Shown here: positions 24,644 through 55,956 of the stretch, piece after piece
Position numbering within the stretch: the first letter of the stretch is position 1
Layout: each line of letters begins with the position of its first letter
Assembly (NCBI RefSeq): GCF_024166365.1
Contig: NC_064841.1
Location: 46,567,680 to 46,631,679, forward strand
Reading direction: 5' to 3'
Source: Elephas maximus
Taxonomy: Eukaryota
DNA length: 64,000 nucleotides
The notes under the pieces: model-generated
The model's input: the letters and a program-made list of their open reading frames with translations, nothing else
The model's database searches: none
What the model was told of the DNA's origin: nothing
Position numbers and translations under genes: made by a program

Positions 24644-25565
24644 GTTTGTGAGCAGCCATCTAAGAAATATCTACTGGTCCCATACCGTCCAGAGCAAAAG
24701 GCAATGAAGAAAATCAAAGACAGAAGGGAAAGACTAGTCCAAAGGACTAATGGACCACAACTACCACAGACTCCACCAGCCTGAGCCTAGAATAACTAGA
24801 TACAGTGGCAGCTCCAACAGGGATCACAATAAAGGGTCCCTGACAGAGTAGAAGAAAATGCAGAACAAAATCAAAATTCACAAAAAGACCAGACGTACTG
24901 GTCTGACACATACTGGAGGAACCCCTGAGACTATGGCCCCCAGATACCCTGATAACTCAGAGCTGAAGCCACTCTTGAAGTTCATCCTTCAGCCAAAGAT
25001 TAGACAGGTCTATAAAACAAACAATAACATACACGAGGAATGTGCTTCTTAGTTCAATCACGTATACCAAACCAAATGGACAACACTCACCCAAAAGCAA
25101 TGAGAAGGCAGGAAAGGACAGGAAGAATGGAGGGACGGAAACAGGGAACCCAGGGTGGGGAAAGGGACAGTGTTAACACATCACAGGGTTTGCAACCAAA
25201 GTCACAAAACTGTGACCAAGTGCAAACCCTAGGTTCTGCTTGACATAACTCATATTGGCCAATAAATGAGAGACCGAGGTGGGAAGATACAAAAGGCAAC
25301 TTTATTTTGTTTTGCAAGGAAAGGAGTCAGTCAGAGCTGCTGCTGCCACCAAGGTTGCTCCCTGAGGGCAAGGTGAAATGTTACTTTTAAGGGTTCATAA
25401 GTAGGGAGTTCATACATGTTAGTAACATTCTTAATCATACTACACAGATGCTAGATTTTTGAGGTAAGCAAAGGAACCAGGATTATAATGCAGAATTGTG
25501 GGGGAGGAAGCCAAGCAAGCTGCAGGGGAATTTTCTGCATTCTGGGAACTTCTGTATTATTGCCT
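24644..25565 (+). mobile_element. Older-subfamily L1 3'UTR fragment (3' end diverged or truncated)
   Basis: Its first ~550 bp are collinear with L1 3'UTRs (gccatctaag...ggtctgac...ggaacccctgag...). The last 370 bp match the fragment at 32215-32570, which ends in an L1-type terminus with poly(A). Confidence 0.55.
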
Positions 25566-36527: not shown

Positions 36528-36660
36528 CCCACTCTTTTGTGGTGGAGTGGAATCCAACTGTACAGACCCTATGGGACAGAGTAGAGCTGCCCCATAGGGT
36601 TTCCAAGGAGTGGCTGATGATTTCCAAACTGCCATCATTTGGCTGGCAGCTGAGCACGCA
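36528..36660 (-). mobile_element. AfroSINE, partial (tRNA-like head missing), tandem to the next copy
   Basis: gtggtggagtggaatccaactgtacagaccctatgggacagagtagagctgccccatagggtttccaaggagtggctgatgatttccaaactgcc... Confidence 0.7.
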
Positions 36661-36666
36661 AACAAA

Positions 36667-36815
36667 AACAAACCCATTGCCGTGGAGTGGATTCCGACTC
36701 ATAGCAACCCTATAGGACAAGACAGAACTGCCCCACAAAGTTTCCAAGGAGTGCCTGGTGGATTCAAACTGCTGACCTCTGATTGGCAGCTGTACCACTT
36801 AACCACTAGGCCATT
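36667..36815 (-). mobile_element. AfroSINE (complete, minus orientation)
   Basis: aaacccattgccgtggagtggattccgactcatagcaaccctataggacaagacagaactgccccacaaagtttccaaggagtgcctggtggattcaaactgctgacc...cacttaaccactaggccatt. Confidence 0.85.
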
Positions 36816-37229
36816 ACTAAATAAATGATCCTGTCAAATGCAGTGTTAAGAATCTGCACATGCAAATATACATACTCAGGATGAACACCACACTTTGAAT
36901 ATTTTAATACATTTATTGCAATTCTGCATTCCAGACTCTAAAGAGCTTAAGCTCTAACACTTGGCTGCGCCTGTTTTCCCAGAAGCTGAACTCTACAGTG
37001 CTCTACTTCCATGAACCCATGGATGAGTCATACCGCATTCCTTGCACGTATTATTTTCAACTTCGGATCTCAACAAGCCCATAAATGTTTTCCCAACTAC
37101 TCATCATGACTAGGTCAGATTCCATTCCCTGATCATTCATCAAAACATTGTACCTTGTACAAGTTTCCTTTGAAATCTAACTTTCAGAAAGAACAGCCTC
37201 TTGGCATACTGGAAATAAAAGGCATTTCA

Positions 37230-37800
37230 TTTCTGCAGCAACCTGCCGGTTTCCCGAGGCAGGAGGAGTCCCCAGGCCGCCGGCCCGACCCGAGTACACC
37301 ACGGGTCTTGCAGGGCCCCGGCAGTTCCGAAGACGAACCGCGTCCTCGACTGTCCCATGAGTAATTAAAAAGCCAACACTCCCGGCGGACCCGCCAAGTG
37401 AACAGGCCCTTTAAACTGAAAGCTTTGAATGCCGGAAAGGACTACAAGGAAGTCGCACAGCACATGGAAGCAAAGCAGGATTCTTTCCAAACGGTGGAGC
37501 TGGACTCCCTTCGCCCTGCAGGAAGGGCCACCCAGAAAATGCTCCCGACTTCCCCAACCCTGGAAAGGACAATGGAGAACCCGCAGGCCACCCGCGGTCC
37601 TCACGCACCTGGCTGAGATCCGGGGGCTGCAGGTACTCGGGCTCCAGATCCTCTGCTATCCGGCTCTGACCTCAGCTGGCCGCTGGGCAGTCCCAGAGCT
37701 AGCGCAGGCAAAACCCCGCCCCGCGGCCTCTGAAGGCCTCGCCCGGCGCTCTGCACCCTGCAACTAAGCGCCCCTTGCGGGAATGAGAGAATGAGCAGCG
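37230..37800. promoter_or_regulatory. GC-rich CpG-island-like block with a GC box (ccccgcccc at ~37718)
   Basis: High G+C and many CpG dinucleotides relative to the AT-rich, CpG-poor flanks. No similarity to the repeats in the window. Confidence 0.45.
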
Positions 37801-38020
37801 GTATTTCCTTCCCAGCATCAGCCCAAGTGTCCAGATATTTTTCAGGATTTTTTTCCAGGAGGGATTTGGCCAAAGAGGCTACCTCTGAGACAAATACGGT
37901 TAACTCTGCTGGTGGAACAAGAGAGCTTTGGGTAAATAGGATCCACATCCTGCCAACCTGAAATAAGGTTAGAACAACCCATGAATTACTGCTTCCTCCT
38001 TAGTATTTTTCTAGTCCCTT

Positions 38021-38155
38021 GGAAACCCTGGTGGCAATTCCAATCCGCCAGATGCTCCTTGGAAACTTTATGGGGCAGTTCTACTCTGCCCTATAGGGTC
38101 GCTATGAGTCGGAATCGACTGGAGGGCAGTGGGTTTGGTTGGTTGGTTGGTTTTT
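38021..38155 (+). mobile_element. AfroSINE with an internal deletion of most of the tRNA-like region
   Basis: ggaaaccctggtggcaattccaatccgccagatgctccttggaaactttatggggcagttctactctgccctatagggtcgctatgagtcggaatcgactggagggcagtgggtttggttgg. Confidence 0.8.
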
Positions 38156-45014: not shown

Positions 45015-46387
45015 GGATATCATATCCAATGTGGAAAGACTGAAAGATTTCCCTGTAAGAAGAGAAACAAGACAAGGATTGCCACTTTTACCTTTACTAT
45101 GGAAATTCTAGCCAGAGCAAACAGGCAACAAAAAGAAATAAAAGACACCCAAATTGGAAAGGAAGAATTAAAGCTATCTCTATTTGCAGATGGCATTAAC
45201 TTATATACAGAAAACCCTAAAGAATTGAGGAAAAAGCTATTAGAACAAACAAGTGACTTCAGCAAAGTCAGAGGGTAAAAGATCAACATGCAAAAGTCAG
45301 TTGTGTTTCTATACACCAACAATGAACATTCTGGAAGAGAAATTGAGAAAGCAATTTAACTTACAATAACATGTAAAAGTGTAAAATACCTAGGAATAAA
45401 TTTAAGTGAGAAAGTGATAGACTTGTACATTGAAAACTATAAAGCATTACTTAAAGAAATTAAGGAAGGCCTAAATAAATAAAAAAGCATACTTTCTTCA
45501 CAGTTTGGAAGACTTAATAATGTTAAGATCGCAGTACTCCCCAATATAATCTACTGATTTAAAGAAATTCCTATTAAAATCTCAACGGCTTTTCTGCAGA
45601 AATGGAAAAGCTAATCCTAAAATTCATATGGAATTGAAAAGGACTCTGAGTAGCCAAAACAGTCTTGAAAAAAAAAAAAAACAAATTTGGATGACTCACA
45701 CTTCCCAATTTCAAAATGTGCTAAAAAGCTACAGTAATCAAAACAGGGTAATACTTGCATAAAGATAGACATTGATCAATGACATAAGATTGACAGTCTA
45801 AAATTCAACCCATACATCTATGGTCAATTGATTTTTGGCAAGGGTGCCAAGACTACTCAATGAGGAAAAGGTGGTCTCTTCAACAAATGGTGCTGGGACA
45901 AGTAGATAGCCACATGCAGAAGAATGAAGTTAGACTCTTACCTCTCGTGATATACAAAAATTAACTCAAAATGGATCAAAGACCTAAATATAAGAGTTAA
46001 AACTATGAATCTTTTAGAAGAAACCATAAGGGTAAATCTTCATGACCTTGCACTTGGCAATGGTTTATAGATGACACCGAAAGCACAAGGAACAAAAGAA
46101 AGAATAGATAAAGTGGACTTCACCAAATTAAAAATTCTTGTGCATCAGAACACATTGTAAAGAAAGTAAAAAGAAAACATTTAAAATAAGAGAAAATATT
46201 TGCAAATTATGTATCAGATAAAAATCTAGTATCCAGAATATATAAAGAACTACCACAACTCAACAACAAAAAGACAAATAATCCAACTAAAAAATGGGCA
46301 AAGGCTTGAATAGACAATTCTCCAAAGAAGATCTACAAATGGCCAACAAGCACATGAAAAGATGCTTAACATCATTGATCATTAAAA

Positions 46388-46546
46388 CCAAAAAACCAAA
46401 CCCACTGCCCTCCAGTCGATTCCGACTCATAGCAACCCTATAGGGCTGAGTAGAACTGCTGCATAGAGTTTCCAAGGAGCACCTGGAGGATTCAAACCTT
46501 TTGGTTAGCATCTGTAGCACTTAACCACTACGCCACCAGGGCTTCC
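46388..46546 (-). mobile_element. AfroSINE nested in the ancient L1 C-terminal region (diverged ~14-bp TSD catcattgatcatta / cattcgtcattagg)
   Basis: aaaaccaaacccactgccctccagtcgattccgactcatagcaaccctatagggctgagtagaactgctgcatagagtttccaaggagcacctggaggattcaaaccttttggttagcatctgtagcacttaaccactacgccaccagggcttcc. Confidence 0.9.
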
Positions 46547-48606: not shown

Positions 48607-49100
48607 TGGATTGAATTATGTCCCCCCAAAATACGTGTGTATCAACTTGGTTAGGCCATGAGTCCCAGTATTGTGTGGTTGTCCTTCATTTTGTGATTGT
48701 GATTTTATGTCAAGAGGATTAGGGTGGGATTGTTACACCACCCTTACTCAGGTCACCTCCCTGATCCAATGTAAAGGGAGTTTCCCTGGGGTGTGACCTT
48801 TTATCTCTAAGAGATGAAAGAGAAGCAAGCAGAGAGTTGGGGACCTCATACCACCACGAAAGTGCCAGAAGCAGAGCACATCCTTTGGACGCCGGGGTCC
48901 CTGCGCCTGAGAAGCTCCCTGACCATGGGGAAGATTGAGGACAAGGACCTTCTTCCAGAGCCGACAGAGACAGAAAGCCTTCCTCTGGAGCTGACACGCT
49001 GAATTTGGACTTTTAGCCTACTTTACTCAGAAAGCATAAACTTCTCTTTGTTAAAGCCATACGCTTGTGGTATTTCTGCTATAGTAGCACTAGATGACTA
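48607..49100. repeat. Unclassified interspersed repeat (family X), longer copy
   Basis: ggattgaattatgtccccccaaaatacgtgtgtatcaacttggttaggccatgagtcccagtattgtg…attagggtgggattgttacaccacc…tgatccaatgtaaagggag…cttttagcctactttactcagaaagcataaacttctctttgttaaagccatacgcttgtggtatttctgctatagtag. Confidence 0.4.
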
Positions 49101-49149
49101 AGACACAACCCATTCCGAATGGGTTTATAACCACAGGTATAAACAAACA

Positions 49150-49310
49150 AAACACTTGGCCGTCAAGGTGATTCTGACTCATAGCGACCCTATAGGATAG
49201 AGTAGAACTGCCCCACAGAGCTTCTAAGGAGCACCAGGTGGATTCAAACTGCCAATCTTTTAATTAGCAGGCATAGCACTTAACCACTACACCACCAAGG
49301 TTTCCAACCA
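49150..49310 (-). mobile_element. AfroSINE
   Basis: aaaacacttggccgtcaaggtgattctgactcatagcgaccctataggatagagtagaactgccccacagagcttctaaggagcaccaggtggattcaaactgccaatcttttaattagcaggcatagcacttaaccactacaccaccaaggtttcc. Confidence 0.9.
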
Positions 49311-49725: not shown

Positions 49726-51859
49726 AAGTGTTGTTTTAAAAATGTGTAATAAAAAAACAACAGTGTGCTTCAAGAAATGCCAAACAACTATATAAATATC
49801 TCAACTATTGTTCTCTTCAATAAATATATAGGAGAGACAACTATCATGGTATTGCTCTCCTGTCATCACAGCAAAGATCCCAGTCAGAATTCTCCTTTTA
49901 TTATCTATCCAACATCATTGGTCAGGCAGTCTTGAATGAAGTGCATGTGATAATCCCTTCCTTGTATAGGCTCTTAGGTTTCAATGATATTTTACTGCAA
50001 ATCTAACGTACCAGCAATAGTTCTATCCATACAAAAATACTGAGATATTCAAGGAAGATGTCTTTCAGCTTCAAACAGTATTATAAACTTCTTTACTAAG
50101 GTAAAATTATAGCAGTCTGAGATTTGGGAGCCTTGGAGAGTAACTCCTCTCTCTTTCTCACAGGTGAGGTGGACTGTGGGTTTTCTTGCCCTTTTCCTAG
50201 AGGCCTAGAGTCATCTTTTCTAGTCTGGGTGACTTCGGTTTGGGCATTGTACCTCAGCCAGGCCTGCATTTCTGTCCTCTCACGATAGGGCAGTCACTGC
50301 TACCACTAGCTCAACAATGAAAAGTTCTCAATTCTCTAAACATCTTTCTGCCCAGATTAACTATGTTAAAAGGGTAGTTATTACCAAATAATTTGGAAAT
50401 TATAGATGTATTATTTTTTATCTTGCAAAACCATTTGATATAACCTGTAGAGCTGGGCTTTTGCAGACAACCCAAGTTCCTCGTCAGTTGAAATCATAAT
50501 AAAGATGAAAACATCTCCTGGTCATTGAATTTTTTACTACATGGTAGGTGTTACGCTAAGTTTTTACGTATAGCCTTTAATTTAATCTTGACAACCCCAT
50601 AATGTAGGTATTATTGTCACCTCCATTTTGCAGATGAGAAGATTGAATTTCAGAGAAGTACAAAGTTCTCTGTAAATTGTCAAGTTAGGATTTGATCCAG
50701 GCCCGCCTGACTCCAAAGCATGGGCTGTTAACCGTTACATTACAGTGTCCTCTTGCTTCCTATGATGGCATAAAGGATTGTATCAGAATGGGTAATTTGT
50801 GGTTAAACCCCCCTGTGTGAGCATTTGGTCTAAGTTTTCTCCACAGCAATACCTGAAGATGCAACAAAGATCGGAGTAGCTGATTTGATTGAATCTTTCA
50901 TTGCCTGGCAGACTAGAATTCAGAAGTTACTCCCCTCCACTGTGTAAGGGATTTGGAAGACCCTGCAGCCTTAGTTGAGAGTTTTAAGAATTACATGAAA
51001 GCTTATATAGATCAGAACCTAAATTTAACAGCTGGATAAGACTTGAATATGGTAAAAGACTATTCAGTCAATAAGCAATGTGAGCAGCAGTACTACATAT
51101 TACACTAGAACAAGAACAGGCATAAAATTAGAGGCTATTGTCACTGTCCTCAAAAAGGAACATTCTAAGAAAAATGATGAGATTTGGGTACGCTTTCAAA
51201 CTAAAGCACACTCATAAATGAAGATCGTTTCGGTCCTGAAGTGATGAGAGTTCTAGTCCTTGTCCAGCATCTTAAAATAGTCATGTGATCTTGGAAGACT
51301 GGGCTTTGGCTTCCTCTTCTACAAGGAAAATTTAATAACAATAATAAACACAACAAACCCAAAACCTTGATTTTGGTAAGTAGAACTATTTTTGAAGTAA
51401 AAGGCAAAAAAAAAAAAAAAGAAGAATTTTTTTTTTTTTTGGTAGTGATGTGGAAAATTTCTGAGAAATTGTTTCTAAATTAGCTTTAGCCAGTGGAAGT
51501 TTGCTTCAGATATTATACCAGTTGTTATAAATGGCATGTCATCTGATTTCAACATTTTACTGTTAAAAATCAGAATGTCAAACGGATTCCTGCTGTTTAA
51601 AGAGTCACGAAGCCCAGATACGTACACCGTGCTAACTTGCAATGCTGTAACTTCCTAAAGGGCCGTAACTGCATCCACCCTGCACGCATTTCTTCAGTTT
51701 TGTACTTTTTGTGCTCAAAATAGTTTTAGTAGCTAATGAACACACTAGCTACATGAACAAAGTGAGATAACTATATTTGGAGTGAACTGTCTCACGGTCA
51801 TCTTTGCCTTATGAAATAGTGTGGCCGATCACTCTTGGTTCTCCTAATTAACACTCAGC

Positions 51860-52620
51860 CACCGGCAAAAGAAAACCTAAAAAAAAGGAAAAGTAACACC
51901 CAAACCGACCGTTCGCAAACAGCAAACAACAAAAAAAAGCCTTTAAGTTGTGCGCGCTGGGTCTCTGTGCGCCCAGTTTGCGAGGAACGTAAAGATTTAC
52001 TCCACGTGTAGGGCCTACCCTTCATTTCAAAGGGACCCAGGAGCGTTAGTCTTGGGCCCTCCACGGTGAACGCCCATGCCCCCGCCGACAGAGCAACATC
52101 CCAGCCAGTTGCCCGCGGTTCGGGCGGAGGCGCCGCGCAGCAAGGTTCTCGCTGACGTCCTTGGCCCGTGGTGCCGCTGGGAGTTGTAGTTTGCATAGGT
52201 CCGGCGGTGCCAGCCCGAGCGTGGAAGACCCGGCGATAACTACACTTCCCAGGAGCCCTCGGGTTTGGCGGGGTCGTCAGGGCAGCGGCTGCGGCGACTC
52301 GATCGTAAATGCGGCGCGAGTTGGTAAAAGCGCTGGTGTGGGAGCGGGCATACAGACCGGTGAGGGGGCGCTCGGCGGTTGTAGGTGGGCTACGGGGGCC
52401 GGGGATAGGGCTGACGGGTCTCGGGGTTCGGGCTGGCTTGGCAGAGGGAACGCAGGTGGGGAAACAGGGTGGTCGGCGGGCCGCGGGAAATACCAGTTTA
52501 ATGTCTATCACAGGTTAACGCTGTTGTTTCTTCGGGGAGCCTTAGAAGCCTGCCTTTCAGGCGGGTCTCACTGTCTTGTGGTTTTGGCTTGACTTGGAGG
52601 TATTGTTTAAACGCGTTGGA
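51860..52620. promoter_or_regulatory. CpG island / candidate TATA-less promoter. It has two inverted ACTACAnnTCCCAG (ZNF143/SBS-like) motifs at 52177-52199 (minus orientation) and 52238-52253 (plus), and a CRE-like TGACGTCC at 52153-52160.
   Basis: Very high G+C and CpG density against AT-rich, CpG-poor flanks. The motifs are read directly: cctatgcaaACTACAACTCCCAGcggc (reverse complement) and aACTACACTTCCCAGgagc. No TATA box. Not a repeat. Confidence 0.7.
52309..52359 (+). CDS. Candidate first coding exon: ATG plus 17 codons (MRRELVKALVWERAYRP) ending exactly at a GT donor (accg|gtgaggg). Gene unknown.
   Basis: The ATG sits in a CpG island ~70 bp downstream of the ZNF143-like motif. The downstream sequence fits a splice donor (CG|GTGAGG). 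Nothing else supports it, and the peptide is not recognised. Confidence 0.25.
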
Positions 52621-53966
52621 AAAGAGAGTTTAGGTGGCGTTTGCTTTTTGTCCTTTGGGCCCATCGGTTTCATCCCTGTAAAGTGCTTCTGTTTTAAAGT
52701 TTCGTTATAGATTCGTGGCATTTGAGGAGTAATAAGGCTTTGAAGGAAGTGTTTTATTTTGGCAAACTGAACTTCCTGCACCGTTTACTTTTCAGGGCCT
52801 TTTTTTCCCTTAGGGTGCGGAGAGTTTATCTTTTTTTTTTTTTTCCTTTAAAATGGTTTTAAGAACGTTTATATAGAGGGTCAAGACTGACAGTTTACTT
52901 CAGTAGGATTTTGATATCTGTAAAAGCTAGAGTCTAATTCTATCGAGGCATTTTTTTGCTGTAAATTCTTCCTTTATAAAAGGGCTTAATATAAAAAATG
53001 AATAGCAGATTGAGGTAAAACAGTATTTTTATATTTAATGCTGACATTAACACATTTTTAAGATCATAAACATGATACTGAAATGAAGGTGTGGAATTTT
53101 CTTTTTCTTTAAGTGGGAGAAAGACGCAGATGCCCTGTCACAATGTTATAACCAGAATGTATTAGTCTAGTGGGGAACTTTTCTAGTTTTTCTTTTTTTT
53201 TTTAAATTATCTCAAAAATATTTAAGAAATTATTGTGAAATGTATATAATAAAACATTTGCCAATTCAACATTTTTTACATGTAGAGTTTCATTGACATT
53301 AGTTATGTTCATCATGTGCAACCATCACCATTATCTGTTTCCAAATTTTTCCATTACCCTGAACAGAAGCTCAGTGCCCCCTAAGAAATACCCACCTTCC
53401 TCTCACCACTGGTAACCACTATTAAATTTTGGTCTCTGTACATTTGCCTATTCTGGATATTTCATGTAAGTGGTTCATACAGTATTTGTCCTTTCGTGCC
53501 TGACCTCTTTCAGCATGATGTTTTCAAGGTTCATCCATGTTGTAGCATGTATGAGGACTTCATTTCGCTTTATGGCTAATTTATTCCATTGTATGTATAT
53601 ACTACATTGTGTTGATCACTTCATCTGTAGTTGAACTTGTAGATTGTTTCTGCCTTTTGGCTATTGTGAAGAGTGCTGCAGTGAACGTTGGTGTACGAGA
53701 ATCTGTTTGACTCTTGCTTTCCAGGCCATTGAGTATATACTAGGAGTAGAATTGTGGATCATCTGGTAGCTCTATGTTTAACTTTTTGAGGAACTGTCAT
53801 GCTTTTTCGCAGCGGCTGCACCATTTTACAATCCTACTGGCAATGGATGGGGGTTCCGGTTTCACCACATCCTTGCCAACGCTTAATATTTTGATAACAG
53901 CCATCCTAGTGGGAGTGAGGTGGTATCTCATTGTGGTTTTGATTTGCATTTCCTTAATGGATAAAG

Positions 53967-54116
53967 GGAAACCCTGGTGGTATAGAGTTCCAGCTGCTAA
54001 CCAGAAGGTAGGCAGTTCAAATCCACCAGATGCTCCTTGGAAACTCTTTGGGGCAGTTCTACTCTGTCACGTAGGGTCGCTATGAGTCGGAATCGACTCC
54101 ATGGCAGCATGTTTTT
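53967..54116 (+). mobile_element. AfroSINE inserted in the old L1, with TSD AATGGATAA(A)GG (53956-53966 / 54117-54127)
   Basis: ggaaaccctggtggtatagagttccagctgctaaccagaaggtaggcagttcaaatccaccagatgctccttggaaactctttggggcagttctactctgtcacgtagggtcgctatgagtcggaatcgactccatggcagcatg. Confidence 0.9.
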
Positions 54117-55008
54117 AATGGATAAGGATTTGAGCATCTTTTCATTTGCTTATTGGCCATCTGTATATCTTTTTTAGTGAAATGGCTATTCAAGTCCTTT
54201 GCCCGTTTTTAGATTGGGTTGTCTTTTTGTTGTTGTGTTGTAGGAGTTCTTTTTATAGTCCTGGATATTAAACCCTTGTCATATATGTTATTCCCAAATA
54301 TTTTCTCACAATCTGTAGATTGTGTCTTCACTTTGTTGATAAAAGTTCTTTGGTGCACAGATGTTTTAAATTTTTATAAAGTTCAGTTTATCCGTTTTGT
54401 CTTCTTTTGTGTGTGCTTTTTTTTTTGTATATGAAAAAATTTGTTGTTAAAAGCTCGCTCCTGAAGAATCGCTTGTATGTTTTTTTCAAGAATTTTATGG
54501 TTTTAGTTCTTACATTCAGGTTTTTGATACATTTTGAGTTAATTTTGATATGTGGTGTGAAATATGGATCCAGCTTCATTATTTTACATGTGGAGATCCA
54601 GTTGTCCCAGCTCCATTTATTGAAGAGCCTGTTCTTTCCCCACTGGATGAACTTAGCACCCTTGCTGAAATCAGTTATTTCTGGATTCTTAATTCTAGTC
54701 CATGTTACATGTGTCTGTCATTGGACTGGTACCAGACTATTTGAATTATTGTAGCCTTATAGTATGTTTTGAAATTGGGAAATGTGAGTCCTCTTACTTT
54801 GTTCTTTTCTAGGATTGCTTTGGCTATTTGAGGCCTCTTACAATTCCAGGTAAATGTGAGGATTGGCTTTTCCATTTCTGAAAAGAAGGCTGCTGGAATT
54901 TTGATAGGTATTATGTTGAATCTATAAATTGCTTTGAGTAGAGTTGACATCTTCACAATATTGAGTCTTCCAATCCATGAAGATGGAATGTCTTTCCATT
55001 TTGTTAGA

Positions 55009-55460: not shown

Positions 55461-55788
55461 CCATTTATTTAGATCTTCCTTAATTTTTTCAGCAGCGTTT
55501 TATAGTTTTCAGTTTACAAGTCTTTCACCTTCCTGGTTAAATTTATTCTTAGGTGTTTTATTCTTTTAGATGCTGTTGTAAAGGGAATTGTTAATTTCTT
55601 TTTCAGATTGCTCATTGCTGTTCTGTAGAAGCCCAGCTGATTTTTGTGTGTTGATCTTGTACCTTACCACTTTGTTGAATTCATTTATTAGCTCTATTAG
55701 CTTTTATTGTGGATTCTTTGAGATTTTCTATATTTAGGATCATGTCATCTGTGACTAGGAATAGTTTACTTCTTTTTTCTTGATTTAA

Positions 55789-55956
55789 ACTGTAAGAAAA
55801 CAAACCCACTGCCATTGAGTCGATTCCAACTCACAGCTACTCTGTACAATAGAACAGAACTGCCCCATAGAGTTTCCAAGGAGCACCTGGCGGATTTGAA
55901 TTGCCAACCTCTTGGTTAGCAGCCTTAGCACTTAGCCACTACACCACCAGGGATTC
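55789..55956 (-). mobile_element. AfroSINE inserted in the old L1, with TSD TTCTTGATTTA (55776-55788 / 55958-55970)
   Basis: aaaacaaacccactgccattgagtcgattccaactcacagctactctgtacaatagaacagaactgccccatagagtttccaaggagcacctggcggatttgaattgccaacctcttggttagcagccttagcacttagccactacaccaccagggattcc. Confidence 0.9.

What the first reader, a model, noticed from the sequence alone, without database searches (positions are those of the whole stretch)
51860..52620. CpG-island promoter with two inverted ZNF143/SBS-type motifs, a CRE-like site and a candidate 17-codon first exon
This is the only non-repeat, CpG-dense block with promoter grammar. ACTACAACTCCCAG (minus orientation, 52177-52199) and ACTACACTTCCCAG (plus, 52238-52253) lie about 45 bp apart in opposite orientations. 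Both match the ACTACAAyTCCCAGnA submotif bound by ZNF143 (also bound by THAP11/HCFC1) at TATA-less and bidirectional promoters. TGACGTCC at 52153-52160 is close to the CRE octamer TGACGTCA. An ATG at 52309 opens MRRELVKALVWERAYRP and stops exactly at accg|gtgaggg, a plausible donor. This could be the 5' end of a host gene on the plus strand, and perhaps a divergent transcript on the minus strand. I cannot name the gene.
Basis: partly seen in the sequence, partly recalled or inferred. Interest (0 to 1): 0.55.

Follow-up and report, generated by a model that had tools for sequence, protein, structure and literature searches.

The report
Ordinary CpG-island promoter, THAP11/ZNF143 motifs
This is a normal mammalian housekeeping-type gene promoter: a CpG island carrying two copies of a well-known promoter motif and most likely firing on the plus strand. 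The proposed 17-codon first coding exon and the identity of the gene could not be confirmed.

Summary
A 750-bp CpG island lies at 51901-52650 (GC 0.60, CpG o/e 0.98, against 0.29 for the window). It holds the only two exact ACTACANNTCCCAG motifs in the window, at 52177-52190 (-) and 52239-52252 (+), where 0.0001 are expected by chance. These are perfect THAP11-binding/M4 motifs. Only the plus-strand copy keeps a better-than-chance ZNF143 half (CCCR plus C12, 9/12). The minus-strand copy does not (6/12).

Direction was inferred from sequence alone. GC skew flips from -0.18 to +0.42 at about 52100-52300. Two strong 5' splice sites follow on the plus strand, at 52359 and 52455. The minus strand has none in 3 kb and a polyA hexamer at about 785 nt. 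This fits a productive plus-strand gene with, at most, a short upstream-antisense RNA.

The CRE-like site is not beyond chance (P about 0.13). The 17-codon exon is unproven: 17 open codons are expected by chance (P 0.57), the Kozak context is poor, the ATG sits in the predicted TSS zone, and no protein shares the N-terminus. A second, weaker CpG island lies at 37131-37830.

The gene could not be named with these tools. This is an ordinary feature of a known kind, of low interest.

The parts
51901..52650 (.). CpG island (750 bp, GC 0.60, CpG o/e 0.98), unique in the window, TATA-less and CCAAT-less
52166..52190 (-). Site A: ACTACAACTCCCAG (52177-52190), a perfect THAP11-binding site / M4 motif. 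On the + strand it reads CTGGGAGTTGTAGTT, which matches the Ronin motif CTGGGARWTGTAGTY. It is preceded by AA (RRACTACAN). The ZNF143-specific 3' half is degenerate in register: 6/12, A at SBS position 12, GCACC displaced by 1 nt.
   Evidence: motif definitions from PMC3627581 and PMC3082894
52239..52263 (+). Site B: ACTACACTTCCCAG (52239-52252) extended to a 25-bp SBS2-like site. It is a perfect TBS/M4 motif, with CCCR at SBS positions 3-6, C at position 12, 15/18 matches to the degenerate SBS consensus, and 9/12 in the 3' half (P about 0.02).
52189..52196 (-). Octamer-like ATGCAAAC (7/8 of ATGCAAAT), overlapping the 5' end of site A by 2 nt. Significance not established.
52153..52160 (+). 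CRE-like TGACGTCC (7/8; contains the half-site TGACG). Not beyond chance.
52122..52127 (+). Sp1-type GC box GGGCGG. A further GGCGGGG at 52267-52273 is read directly from the sequence.
52003..52008 (.). E-box CACGTG (palindromic)
52286..52335 (+). Inferred plus-strand TSS zone, 40-89 bp downstream of the centre of site B. It coincides with the onset of strong positive GC skew.
   Evidence: Inference. Not observed directly.
52309..52359 (+). Candidate 17-codon ORF, MRRELVKALVWERAYRP. An in-frame TAA lies directly upstream. Kozak context is weak: tcgtaaATGc. Coding status is unproven.
52360..52365 (+). Best 5' splice-site-like sequence in the island: CCG|GTGAGG, about 9.1 bits, phase 0 relative to the ATG. 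Candidate end of exon 1.
52456..52461 (+). Alternative 5' splice site: CAG|GTGGGG, about 8.7 bits, also phase 0 (49 codons).
52300..52499 (+). Strongly G-skewed segment (GC skew +0.42 to +0.43), directly downstream of the inferred TSS.
52095..52144 (-). Inferred zone of divergent (upstream-antisense) initiation, 40-89 bp from the centre of site A. The cumulative G-C minimum is at 52114.
   Evidence: Inference.

Best explanation
The block is the TATA-less CpG-island core promoter of an RNA polymerase II gene transcribed on the plus strand.

Two divergently oriented ACTACANNTCCCA elements, 48 bp apart, would recruit THAP11 with its co-regulator HCFC1. At least at the plus-strand copy, which keeps an SBS2-like 3' half, they would also recruit ZNF143, which stimulates initiation. 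Sp1-type GC boxes, an E-box and possibly a CRE half-site assist.

Initiation is inferred to be dispersed at about 52286-52335. The first exon is short and ends at the donor after 52359, or alternatively after 52455. The first intron exceeds 11.5 kb and is filled with antisense L1 elements. On the other side, the minus-oriented motif probably supports only short, unspliced upstream-antisense transcription that ends at early polyA signals.

What is shown: the island, the motifs and their statistics, the strand asymmetries, and the splice-site/polyA asymmetry. What is inferred: factor binding, TSS position, exon 1 boundaries, and whether the ATG at 52309 is translated. For that last point I give about 0.3 that it is the main start codon.
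For: - CpG island metrics.
- Two exact TBS/M4 motifs, with 0.0001 expected in the island. They form a 15-nt inverted repeat.
- Site B has CCCR plus C12 and 9/12 in the ZNF143 3' half, P about 0.02. These are the SBS features described in PMC3082894.
- Literature on this motif class. The TBS is bound by THAP11, and SBS2 by ZNF143 or THAP11 (PMC3627581). M4 is a conserved core-promoter element peaking about 89 bp upstream of TSSs (PMC5006282). HCFC1 sits about 40 bp upstream of TSSs, and 97% of its TSS-associated peaks lie in CpG islands (PMC3668359). ZNF143 acts proximally and stimulates initiation (bioRxiv 2024.05.13.594008).
- GC skew flips from -0.18 (52000-52099) to +0.42 (52300-52499). The cumulative minimum is at 52114. 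G>C and T>A persist to about 52900.
- Plus direction: 5' splice sites at +70 and +166 from 52290, first polyA hexamer at +959. Minus direction: no site of 7.5 bits or more in 3 kb, polyA hexamer at +785.
- No TATA or CCAAT box.
- No RNA gene or tRNA in the window.
- Downstream L1s are antisense to the plus strand, as is usual for intronic L1s (own knowledge).
- Three unrelated CpG-rich metagenome loci carry the same divergent motif pair, so the layout recurs.
Against: - No transcript, CAGE, ChIP or cross-species data could be reached, so promoter activity, direction and factor occupancy are inferred from sequence alone.
- No downstream exon was found in the 11.4 kb that remain on the plus strand.
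- The gene could not be named.
- Site A lacks a recognisable ZNF143 half, and the literature disagrees on whether THAP11 and ZNF143 bind such sites together or exclusively.
- The splice-site matrix I used is approximate. Its frequencies were written from memory.
- GC skew and U1/polyA asymmetry are statistical tendencies, not proofs for a single locus.
Confidence: 0.8

Rival explanations
1. This is a true bidirectional promoter shared by two stable genes, one on each strand. Each of the two oppositely oriented motifs serves one direction.
For: - The motifs point in opposite directions.
- SBS and ACTACANNTCCC motifs are over-represented in bidirectional promoters, and a single SBS can drive both directions (PMC3082894).
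- Pol II forms two peaks flanking SBS2 loci (PMC3627581).
- GC skew is negative upstream of 52100.
- L1s upstream are in plus orientation, which is antisense to a hypothetical minus-strand gene.
Against: - The minus strand has no 5' splice site of 7.5 bits or more within 3 kb of the inferred start. The best is AGG|GTAGGC, 6.3 bits, at 52019. A polyA hexamer lies at about 785 nt.
- There is no convincing minus-strand start-codon exon.
- No exon-like match turned up on the minus strand between 36.4 and 52 kb.
- The negative skew upstream is much weaker than the positive skew downstream.
Confidence: 0.15
2. The promoter drives a non-coding or 5'-UTR-only first exon. The ATG at 52309 is either upstream of the real TSS, or a short upstream ORF start, and not the start of the gene's protein.
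For: - Weak Kozak context: T at -3, C at +4.
- The ATG lies within the TSS zone predicted from the motif position.
- 17 open codons have P = 0.57 by chance. The frame runs on for 69 codons through G-rich sequence that translates to Gly/Arg/Ala-rich text.
- No protein with this N-terminus exists in a collection that contains many mammalian proteomes.
- No Pfam match.
Against: - It is the first and only ATG between site B and the two strong donors.
- Both donors are in phase 0 with it.
- The first 17 residues look less like low-complexity GC translation than the rest.
- The protein collection seems to cover the source lineage poorly: the best L1 identity is only 60-80%. A lineage-specific or poorly annotated N-terminus would therefore be missed.
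Confidence: 0.55
3. This is a distal sequence element of an snRNA-type (Pol II or Pol III type 3) gene: a Staf/ZNF143 site next to an octamer, activating a small RNA gene about 200 bp away.
For: - An octamer-like ATGCAAAC (7/8) abuts site A.
- ZNF143/Staf was first described as the activator of such genes.
Against: - All 56 ZNF143 sites at snRNA-type genes are SBS1, not the ACTACA-extended SBS2 type (PMC3627581).
- No PSE-like TCACCNTNA is present in the island.
- Rfam finds no small RNA at the gathering threshold in the window, nor at E<=1 within 50500-54500. No tRNA is present.
- snRNA promoters characterised so far carry a single SBS (PMC3082894).
Confidence: 0.02
4. This is an orphan CpG island, or a ZNF143/THAP11-bound regulatory element, that is not a gene promoter. 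Alternatively, the motifs are relics of a repeat such as MLT1J, which carries SBS2 motifs.
For: - No downstream exon was found within the window.
- ZNF143 peaks over MLT1J elements contain SBS2 motifs.
- THAP11 has many non-TSS sites.
Against: - A CpG o/e of 0.98 over 750 bp indicates long-term freedom from methylation, which is typical of active promoters and not of old retroelements.
- The sharp GC-skew switch and the splice-site/polyA asymmetry are promoter signatures.
- The block has no copy elsewhere in a very repeat-rich window.
Confidence: 0.05

Closest known systems
SBS2 / M4-type CpG-island promoters bound by THAP11 (Ronin), ZNF143 and HCFC1. Human examples named in the papers read are NUP153 and ALG14 as SBS2 promoters, and BUB1B with two RRACTACAN+SBS units.
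   Same: - A CpG island with no TATA box.
- Exact ACTACANNTCCCA motifs.
- RRACTACAN immediately upstream of an SBS-like core (CCCR, and C12 at site B).
- More than one motif per promoter.
- The motifs sit a few tens of bp from the inferred TSS.
- Accompanying Sp1-type GC boxes.
   Different: - Site A has no recognisable ZNF143 3' half in register, so it may be a THAP11-only (TBS) site. Ngondo-Mbongo et al. report that genomic TBSs are always linked to an overlapping ZNF143 site.
- Binding was not tested.
- The gene is unknown.
ZNF143-dependent bidirectional promoters (Anno et al. 2011, PMC3082894; e.g. TMEM186-PMM2, C11orf10-FEN1)
   Same: Two SBS-type motifs in a short CpG-rich interval, in opposite orientations, with a skew switch between the two sides.
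   Different: No second gene is detectable on the minus strand. There is no strong 5' splice site, there is an early polyA hexamer, and no exon-like match was found. The defining head-to-head gene pair is therefore not shown.
snRNA-type distal sequence element (octamer + Staf site)
   Same: An octamer-like sequence lies next to a Staf-related motif.
   Different: The site is of the ACTACA-extended type rather than SBS1. There are two copies, no PSE and no small RNA gene. The octamer matches only 7/8 and overlaps the motif.
cAMP-response-element (CREB/ATF) CpG-island promoters
   Same: A TGACG half-site with a central CpG lies about 130-180 bp upstream of the inferred TSS zone.
   Different: The full palindrome is absent (7/8). 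Its occurrence is compatible with chance in this composition (P about 0.1).

Membership tests
CpG island | Gardiner-Garden & Frommer: at least 200 bp, GC >= 0.50, CpG o/e >= 0.60. Takai & Jones: at least 500 bp, GC >= 0.55, o/e >= 0.65. (Criteria from own knowledge.) | tested here: met
   51901-52650: 750 bp, GC 0.599, o/e 0.983. The Takai-Jones scan returns 51771-52750.
M4 / THAP11-binding site (TBS) | Sequence ACTAYRNNNCCCR (M4), or ACTACANNTCCCA (TBS) | tested here: met
   Two exact matches, at 52177-52190 (-) and 52239-52252 (+). They are the only TBS matches in the window. A third M4-pattern match at 24930 lies outside the island. 0.0001 are expected in the island. Definitions.
M4 / THAP11-binding site (TBS) | Occupancy by THAP11/HCFC1 in vivo | not testable with these tools
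   No ChIP data are available for this genome.
ZNF143 site, SBS2 type (25 bp) | ACTACAN directly 5' of an 18-bp SBS with conserved CCCR at positions 3-6 | tested here: met
   Both sites: ACTACAA-CTCCCA and ACTACAC-TTCCCA. Definition.
ZNF143 site, SBS2 type (25 bp) | Conserved C at SBS position 12, and a recognisable 3' half (..ATGCAyyGCG-like) | tested here: inconclusive
   Site B has C12 and 9/12 in the 3' half (P about 0.02). Site A has A at position 12 and 6/12 (chance level), with GCACC shifted by 1 nt. The degenerate consensus was written from memory, and only partly checked against the probe sequences and description.
Bidirectional promoter | Two genes head to head with TSSs less than 1 kb apart on opposite strands | tested here: inconclusive
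   No annotation or transcripts were available. Sequence proxies argue against a spliced minus-strand gene, but divergent initiation itself is plausible.
snRNA-type promoter (DSE + PSE) | Octamer ATGCAAAT plus a single SBS1 at about -200 to -245, a PSE at about -55, and an snRNA or other small RNA gene downstream | tested here: not met
   The octamer matches only 7/8. The sites are ACTACA-extended (SBS2-type), and there are two of them. No PSE-like TCACCNTNA is present. There are no Rfam or tRNA hits.
cAMP response element | Palindrome TGACGTCA, or a functional half-site TGACG near the TSS, present beyond chance | tested here: not met
   7/8 only. 1 observed against 0.14 expected (P 0.13). Half-sites 3 against 1.05 (P 0.08).
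Protein-coding first exon | Start codon in a usable context downstream of the TSS, an ORF spliced in frame to downstream exons, and a peptide conserved in orthologues | tested here: inconclusive
   ATG plus a phase-0 donor are present. Kozak context is weak and the ORF length is uninformative. No matching N-terminus in the protein collection (control). No downstream exon in the window. Orthologues could not be reached.

The most novel reading that the evidence does not exclude
The island is the promoter of a gene, or of a first coding exon or short upstream ORF, that is specific to the source (apparently afrotherian) lineage and unannotated elsewhere. MRRELVKALVWERAYRP would then be a lineage-specific N-terminus or micropeptide. 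Site A would be a natural example of a stand-alone THAP11 site with no overlapping ZNF143 site, which would contradict the reported genome-wide rule that TBSs are always embedded in an SBS.
Probability: 0.05. Interest if true: 0.25.

Novelty: already known. Interest (0 to 1): 0.1.

Why it matters
It matters little beyond annotation. It marks the 5' end of a plus-strand gene in an otherwise L1-, RTE- and SINE-filled, exon-poor stretch. It predicts that this gene belongs to the broadly expressed THAP11/ZNF143/HCFC1-regulated class. For a genome annotator, the usable outputs are a probable TSS zone (about 52286-52335), two candidate exon-1 donors (after 52359 and 52455), and a caution that the ATG at 52309 should not be accepted as the start codon without comparative or ribosome-profiling support. 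The one mildly instructive point is that the two motif copies differ: one is SBS2-like and the other TBS-only. This bears on the unresolved question of whether THAP11 needs ZNF143 at such sites.

Tried and rejected
1. snRNA-type or other RNA gene. Rfam at gathering threshold on the whole window, Rfam at E<=1 on 50500-54500, and ARAGORN all found nothing. Rejected.

2. Naming the gene from the peptide.
- The 17-mer is too short for the search tool.
- The 69-aa read-through ORF gave no hit at E<=10.
- The 218-aa mechanical minus-strand ORF over the island gave no hit.
- Exact look-ups of the 218-aa and 143-aa ORFs found nothing on record.

3. Orthologous DNA. The single metagenome scan, using the double-motif pattern, returned three CpG-rich loci with the same layout but no similarity to the window. 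No mammalian genome collection is available.

4. Control for the negatives. The window's L1 ORF2 fragment finds thousands of mammalian proteins, but at only 60-80% identity. Mammals are therefore covered, while the source lineage seems poorly covered.

5. Exon hunt.
- Lists of non-repetitive open segments show no recognisable coding exon.
- Pfam on selected ORFs hit only an RTE reverse-transcriptase fragment, below its cut-off.
- Composite queries of non-repetitive open segments against all PDB sequences gave 0 hits, for the plus strand 24.9-64 kb (segments of 38 aa or more) and the minus strand 36.4-52 kb (40 aa or more).
- The positive control worked: L1 ORF2 hit human ORF2p at 1e-164.
- The minus strand at 24.9-36.4 kb and downstream of the island was not searched this way.

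6. Repeat or tandem origin of the island. No intra-window copy. No meaningful tandem repeat.

7. The exhaustive representative-protein search, structure prediction and RNA-model tools were not used. A 17-residue match cannot reach significance there, and the word-indexed search at 90% clustering had already excluded near-identical N-termini.
Full report
CONTEXT. The window is mammalian DNA, rich in interspersed repeats.
- Sense L1 fragments fill about 0.5-25 kb and 43-46.5 kb.
- Antisense L1 fragments fill about 53.4-55 kb and 57.5-63 kb.
- RTE-type fragments and many SINE copies are present.
- Whole-window GC is 0.40 and CpG o/e is 0.29.

THE OBSERVATION. A CpG island lies at 51901-52650: 750 bp, GC 0.599, CpG o/e 0.983, 64 CpGs.
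- It has no copy elsewhere in the window. It contains no tandem repeat apart from a 19-bp GCAAACA run.
- ACTACAACTCCCAG is at 52177-52190 on the minus strand. ACTACACTTCCCAG is at 52239-52252 on the plus strand. 48 bp lie between them.
- The repeat finder recovers them independently as a 15-nt inverted repeat.
- They are the only exact ACTACANNTCCCAG matches in the window. Allowing one mismatch, the window has 3 matches against a shuffle mean of 0.34, and 0 of 100 shuffles reach 3.
- In 20,000 first-order Markov shuffles of the island, the expected count is 0.0001 and none had two.
- Three sites in the window fit the M4 pattern ACTAYRNNNCCCR; two of them are these sites and the third lies far away at 24930.
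- TGACGTCC is at 52153-52160.
- The ATG is at 52309, directly preceded by an in-frame TAA. It is followed by 17 codons (MRRELVKALVWERAYRP) and then GTGAGG.

WHAT THE MOTIFS ARE. The papers I read define three related elements.
- The THAP11-binding site (TBS) is ACTACANNTCCCA.
- SBS1 is the 18-bp ZNF143 site. SBS2 is ACTACAN plus SBS1.
- The ZNF143 DNA-binding domain binds SBS1 and SBS2 but not the TBS alone. THAP11 binds the TBS and SBS2 (PMC3627581).
- The SBS has a highly conserved CCCR at positions 3-6 and a conserved C at position 12. In 21% of sites it is preceded by RRACTAYRN (PMC3082894).
- M4 is bipartite. ACTAYR engages THAP11/HCF-1 (PMC5006282).
Both sites here are perfect TBS/M4 motifs. 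On the plus strand, site A reads CTGGGAGTTGTAGTT, which fits the Ronin motif CTGGGARWTGTAGTY as I recall it.

Scoring the ZNF143-specific 3' half in register separates the two sites.
- Site B has C12 and matches 9/12 positions. That gives P about 0.02 for island-composition random sequence, and about 0.05 among other YWCCCR sites in the window.
- Site A has A at position 12 and matches 6/12, which is chance. Its GCACC block is displaced by one base.
- The degenerate consensus I used came from memory and was only partly checked against the published probe sequences and description.
The label 'ZNF143/SBS-type' is therefore fair for site B. For site A, 'THAP11/M4-type' is more accurate.

OTHER ELEMENTS.
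- One Sp1 GC box at 52122, and a second GGCGGGG at 52267-52273 that I read directly.
- An E-box at 52003.
- No TATA, CCAAT, NRF1, YY1 or CCGGAAG ETS sites.
- The CRE-like octamer is not beyond chance. It occurs once against 0.14 expected (P 0.13). Half-sites occur 3 times against 1.05 expected (P 0.08). One-mismatch CRE octamers occur 21 times in the window against 14.4 expected.
- An octamer-like ATGCAAAC (7/8) overlaps the 5' end of site A. This prompted a test of the snRNA-type alternative.

RNA-GENE ALTERNATIVE. Rfam at gathering threshold over the whole window, Rfam at E<=1 over 50500-54500, and ARAGORN all find nothing. There is no PSE-like sequence. In human, ZNF143 sites at snRNA-type genes are all single SBS1 sites, not ACTACA-extended ones. 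Rejected.

DIRECTION OF TRANSCRIPTION (sequence-intrinsic evidence).
- GC skew is -0.18 at 52000-52099. It turns positive at about 52100 and reaches +0.42 to +0.43 at 52300-52499. The cumulative G-C minimum is at 52114.
- G>C together with T>A persists to about 52900.
- A sharp switch to G-richness on the non-template strand just downstream of the TSS is a known property of active CpG-island promoters (Ginno et al. 2012, 2013; own knowledge).
- Counting from 52290, the plus strand has strong 5' splice-site-like sequences at +70 (CCG|GTGAGG, 9.1 bits) and +166 (CAG|GTGGGG, 8.7 bits). It has no polyA hexamer until +959.
- Counting from 52120, the minus strand has no site of 7.5 bits or more in 3 kb, and an ATTAAA at +785.
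- This is the U1/polyA-signal asymmetry that separates productive from upstream-antisense directions (Almada et al. 2013; own knowledge).
- The splice-site matrix is an approximation from memory, so the scores are relative.
- The minus strand also lacks a plausible start-codon exon.
- Downstream L1s are antisense to the plus strand, as intronic L1s usually are. This is weak evidence, because it rests on few insertions.
Together these favour a productive plus-strand gene and, at most, a short antisense RNA on the other side.

TSS POSITION AND THE 17-CODON EXON.
- HCFC1 and its motif lie on average about 40 bp upstream of TSSs (PMC3668359). The M4 peak is cited at -89.
- Measured from the centre of site B, this predicts a TSS at about 52286-52335. 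The ATG at 52309 lies inside that zone.
- Its context, tcgtaaATGc, has neither the -3 purine nor the +4 G.
- At this base composition a stop occurs in 3.2% of codons. Seventeen open codons therefore have P = 0.57. The frame in fact runs on for 69 codons into Gly/Arg/Ala-rich text.
- A search of a 5.8-billion-cluster protein collection with the 69-aa ORF found only two word-sharing candidates, and none at E<=10.
- A control with the window's L1 ORF2 fragment shows that the collection holds many mammalian proteomes. The best identities are only 60-80%, so the source lineage looks poorly covered.
- In favour of the exon: it is the only ATG between site B and the two strong donors, and both donors are in phase 0 with it.
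I rate it at about 0.3 as the true start codon. The alternative, a non-coding first exon or an upstream ORF, is at least as likely.

ATTEMPTS TO NAME THE GENE. All failed.
- Exact look-ups of the two long mechanical ORFs over the island: nothing on record.
- A homology search with the 218-aa minus-strand ORF: no hit.
- The one metagenome scan, using the double-motif pattern: three unrelated CpG-rich loci with the same divergent architecture and no orthologue. This does show that the layout recurs.
- The 11.4 kb downstream is mostly antisense L1 and RTE.
- Non-repetitive open segments show nothing exon-like.
- Composite queries of those segments against all PDB chain sequences returned no hit, for the plus strand at 24.9-64 kb and the minus strand at 36.4-52 kb. 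The L1 positive control scored 1e-164 against human ORF2p.
- Pfam found nothing in selected ORFs except an RTE reverse-transcriptase fragment below its cut-off.
The first intron therefore probably exceeds 11.5 kb, and exon 2 lies outside the window.

COMPARISON WITH WHAT IS KNOWN. This is a textbook member of the M4/SBS2 class of CpG-island promoters occupied by THAP11, ZNF143 and HCFC1. Multiple motifs per promoter are common, and are associated with stronger ZNF143 ChIP signal. SBS motifs are enriched in bidirectional promoters and can act in both directions. The defining feature of a bidirectional promoter is a second gene within 1 kb, and that is not supported here. The only slightly unusual detail is that site A lacks an in-register ZNF143 half, whereas genomic TBSs were reported to be always linked to an overlapping ZNF143 site. 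The SBS 3' half is known to be degenerate, so this is not strong evidence of anything new.

VERDICT.
- Promoter: yes.
- ZNF143 label: partly.
- CRE: not significant.
- Divergent gene: unlikely.
- Coding exon: unproven.
- 'Only CpG island': not strictly, because of 37131-37830.
This is an ordinary, already known kind of element, of low interest. A simple alignment to an annotated afrotherian or human genome would settle the gene name and the status of the exon.

Noticed in passing
window 37131-37830: A second, weaker CpG island by Takai-Jones criteria (GC 0.57-0.63, CpG o/e 0.66-0.71), about 14.5 kb upstream of the finding and unique in the window. It has slightly negative GC skew, an Sp1 box at 37716 (-) and a minus-strand donor-like CAG|GTGCGT ending at 37609 (9.1 bits). 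It has no M4, ETS, NRF1 or YY1 motifs, and no Pfam or PDB match to its ORFs. It could be a minus-strand promoter or an orphan island.
   Followed up: partly
window 34515-34946 (-) and 35243-36257 (+): RTE/BovB-like non-LTR retrotransposon pieces in opposite orientations. One is a reverse-transcriptase-like fragment (Pfam RVT_1, E 2.8e-06, below the curated cut-off). The other is an endonuclease-like ORF, identified by eye only.
   Followed up: partly
window 26360-26524 (-): An open segment, FFLLAQERVICTVANTSCCIQINNTGEV, resembles the transmembrane-subunit CX6CC region of a retroviral envelope protein. This suggests an old endogenous retrovirus fragment. Pfam gave no hit.
   Followed up: partly
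window 0.5-25 kb, 43-46.5 kb, 53.4-55 kb, 57.5-63 kb: L1 orientation switches at the island. L1 fragments are in plus orientation upstream and in minus orientation downstream, which accounts for the strong AT-skew sign change across the window. This is compatible with antisense-biased intronic L1s in transcription units diverging from the 37-52 kb region. Too few independent insertions are involved to test it.
   Followed up: partly
window e.g. 27143-27376, 36460-36798, 37936-38154, 46290-46520, 49093-49263, 54001-54174, 55755-55916: Many copies of a SINE whose translation reads [22 protein letters not shown] in one frame. I recognise this as AfroSINE-like (own knowledge), which supports an afrotherian source. 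This was not verified against a repeat library.
   Followed up: no
L003 1005-1150 (metagenome contig Ga0065711_1094916); also L001, L002: Three CpG-rich metagenome contigs, probably host-derived DNA, carry the same divergent pair of ACTACANNTCCCAG motifs 35-65 bp apart. L003 has a third copy created by a 35-bp tandem duplication (ACTACAGCTCCCAGCGGGCCGTGCG at 1084 and 1119). None resembles the window.
   Followed up: partly
protein P0018: Among the listed hits, the one most identical (80%) to the window's L1 ORF2 fragment is annotated as 'reverse transcriptase family protein [Pseudomonas sp. MOB-449]' on a 3.8-kb contig. This is most likely mammalian DNA contaminating a bacterial assembly.
   Followed up: no
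window 52036-52057 vs 52248-52269: A 22-nt direct repeat (73% identity), CCCAGGAGCGTTAGTCTTGGGC / CCCAGGAGCCCTCGGGTTTGGC. The upstream copy resembles the 3' part of site B without the ACTACA module. It fails the SBS checks by eye (no C12), so it may be chance.
   Followed up: partly
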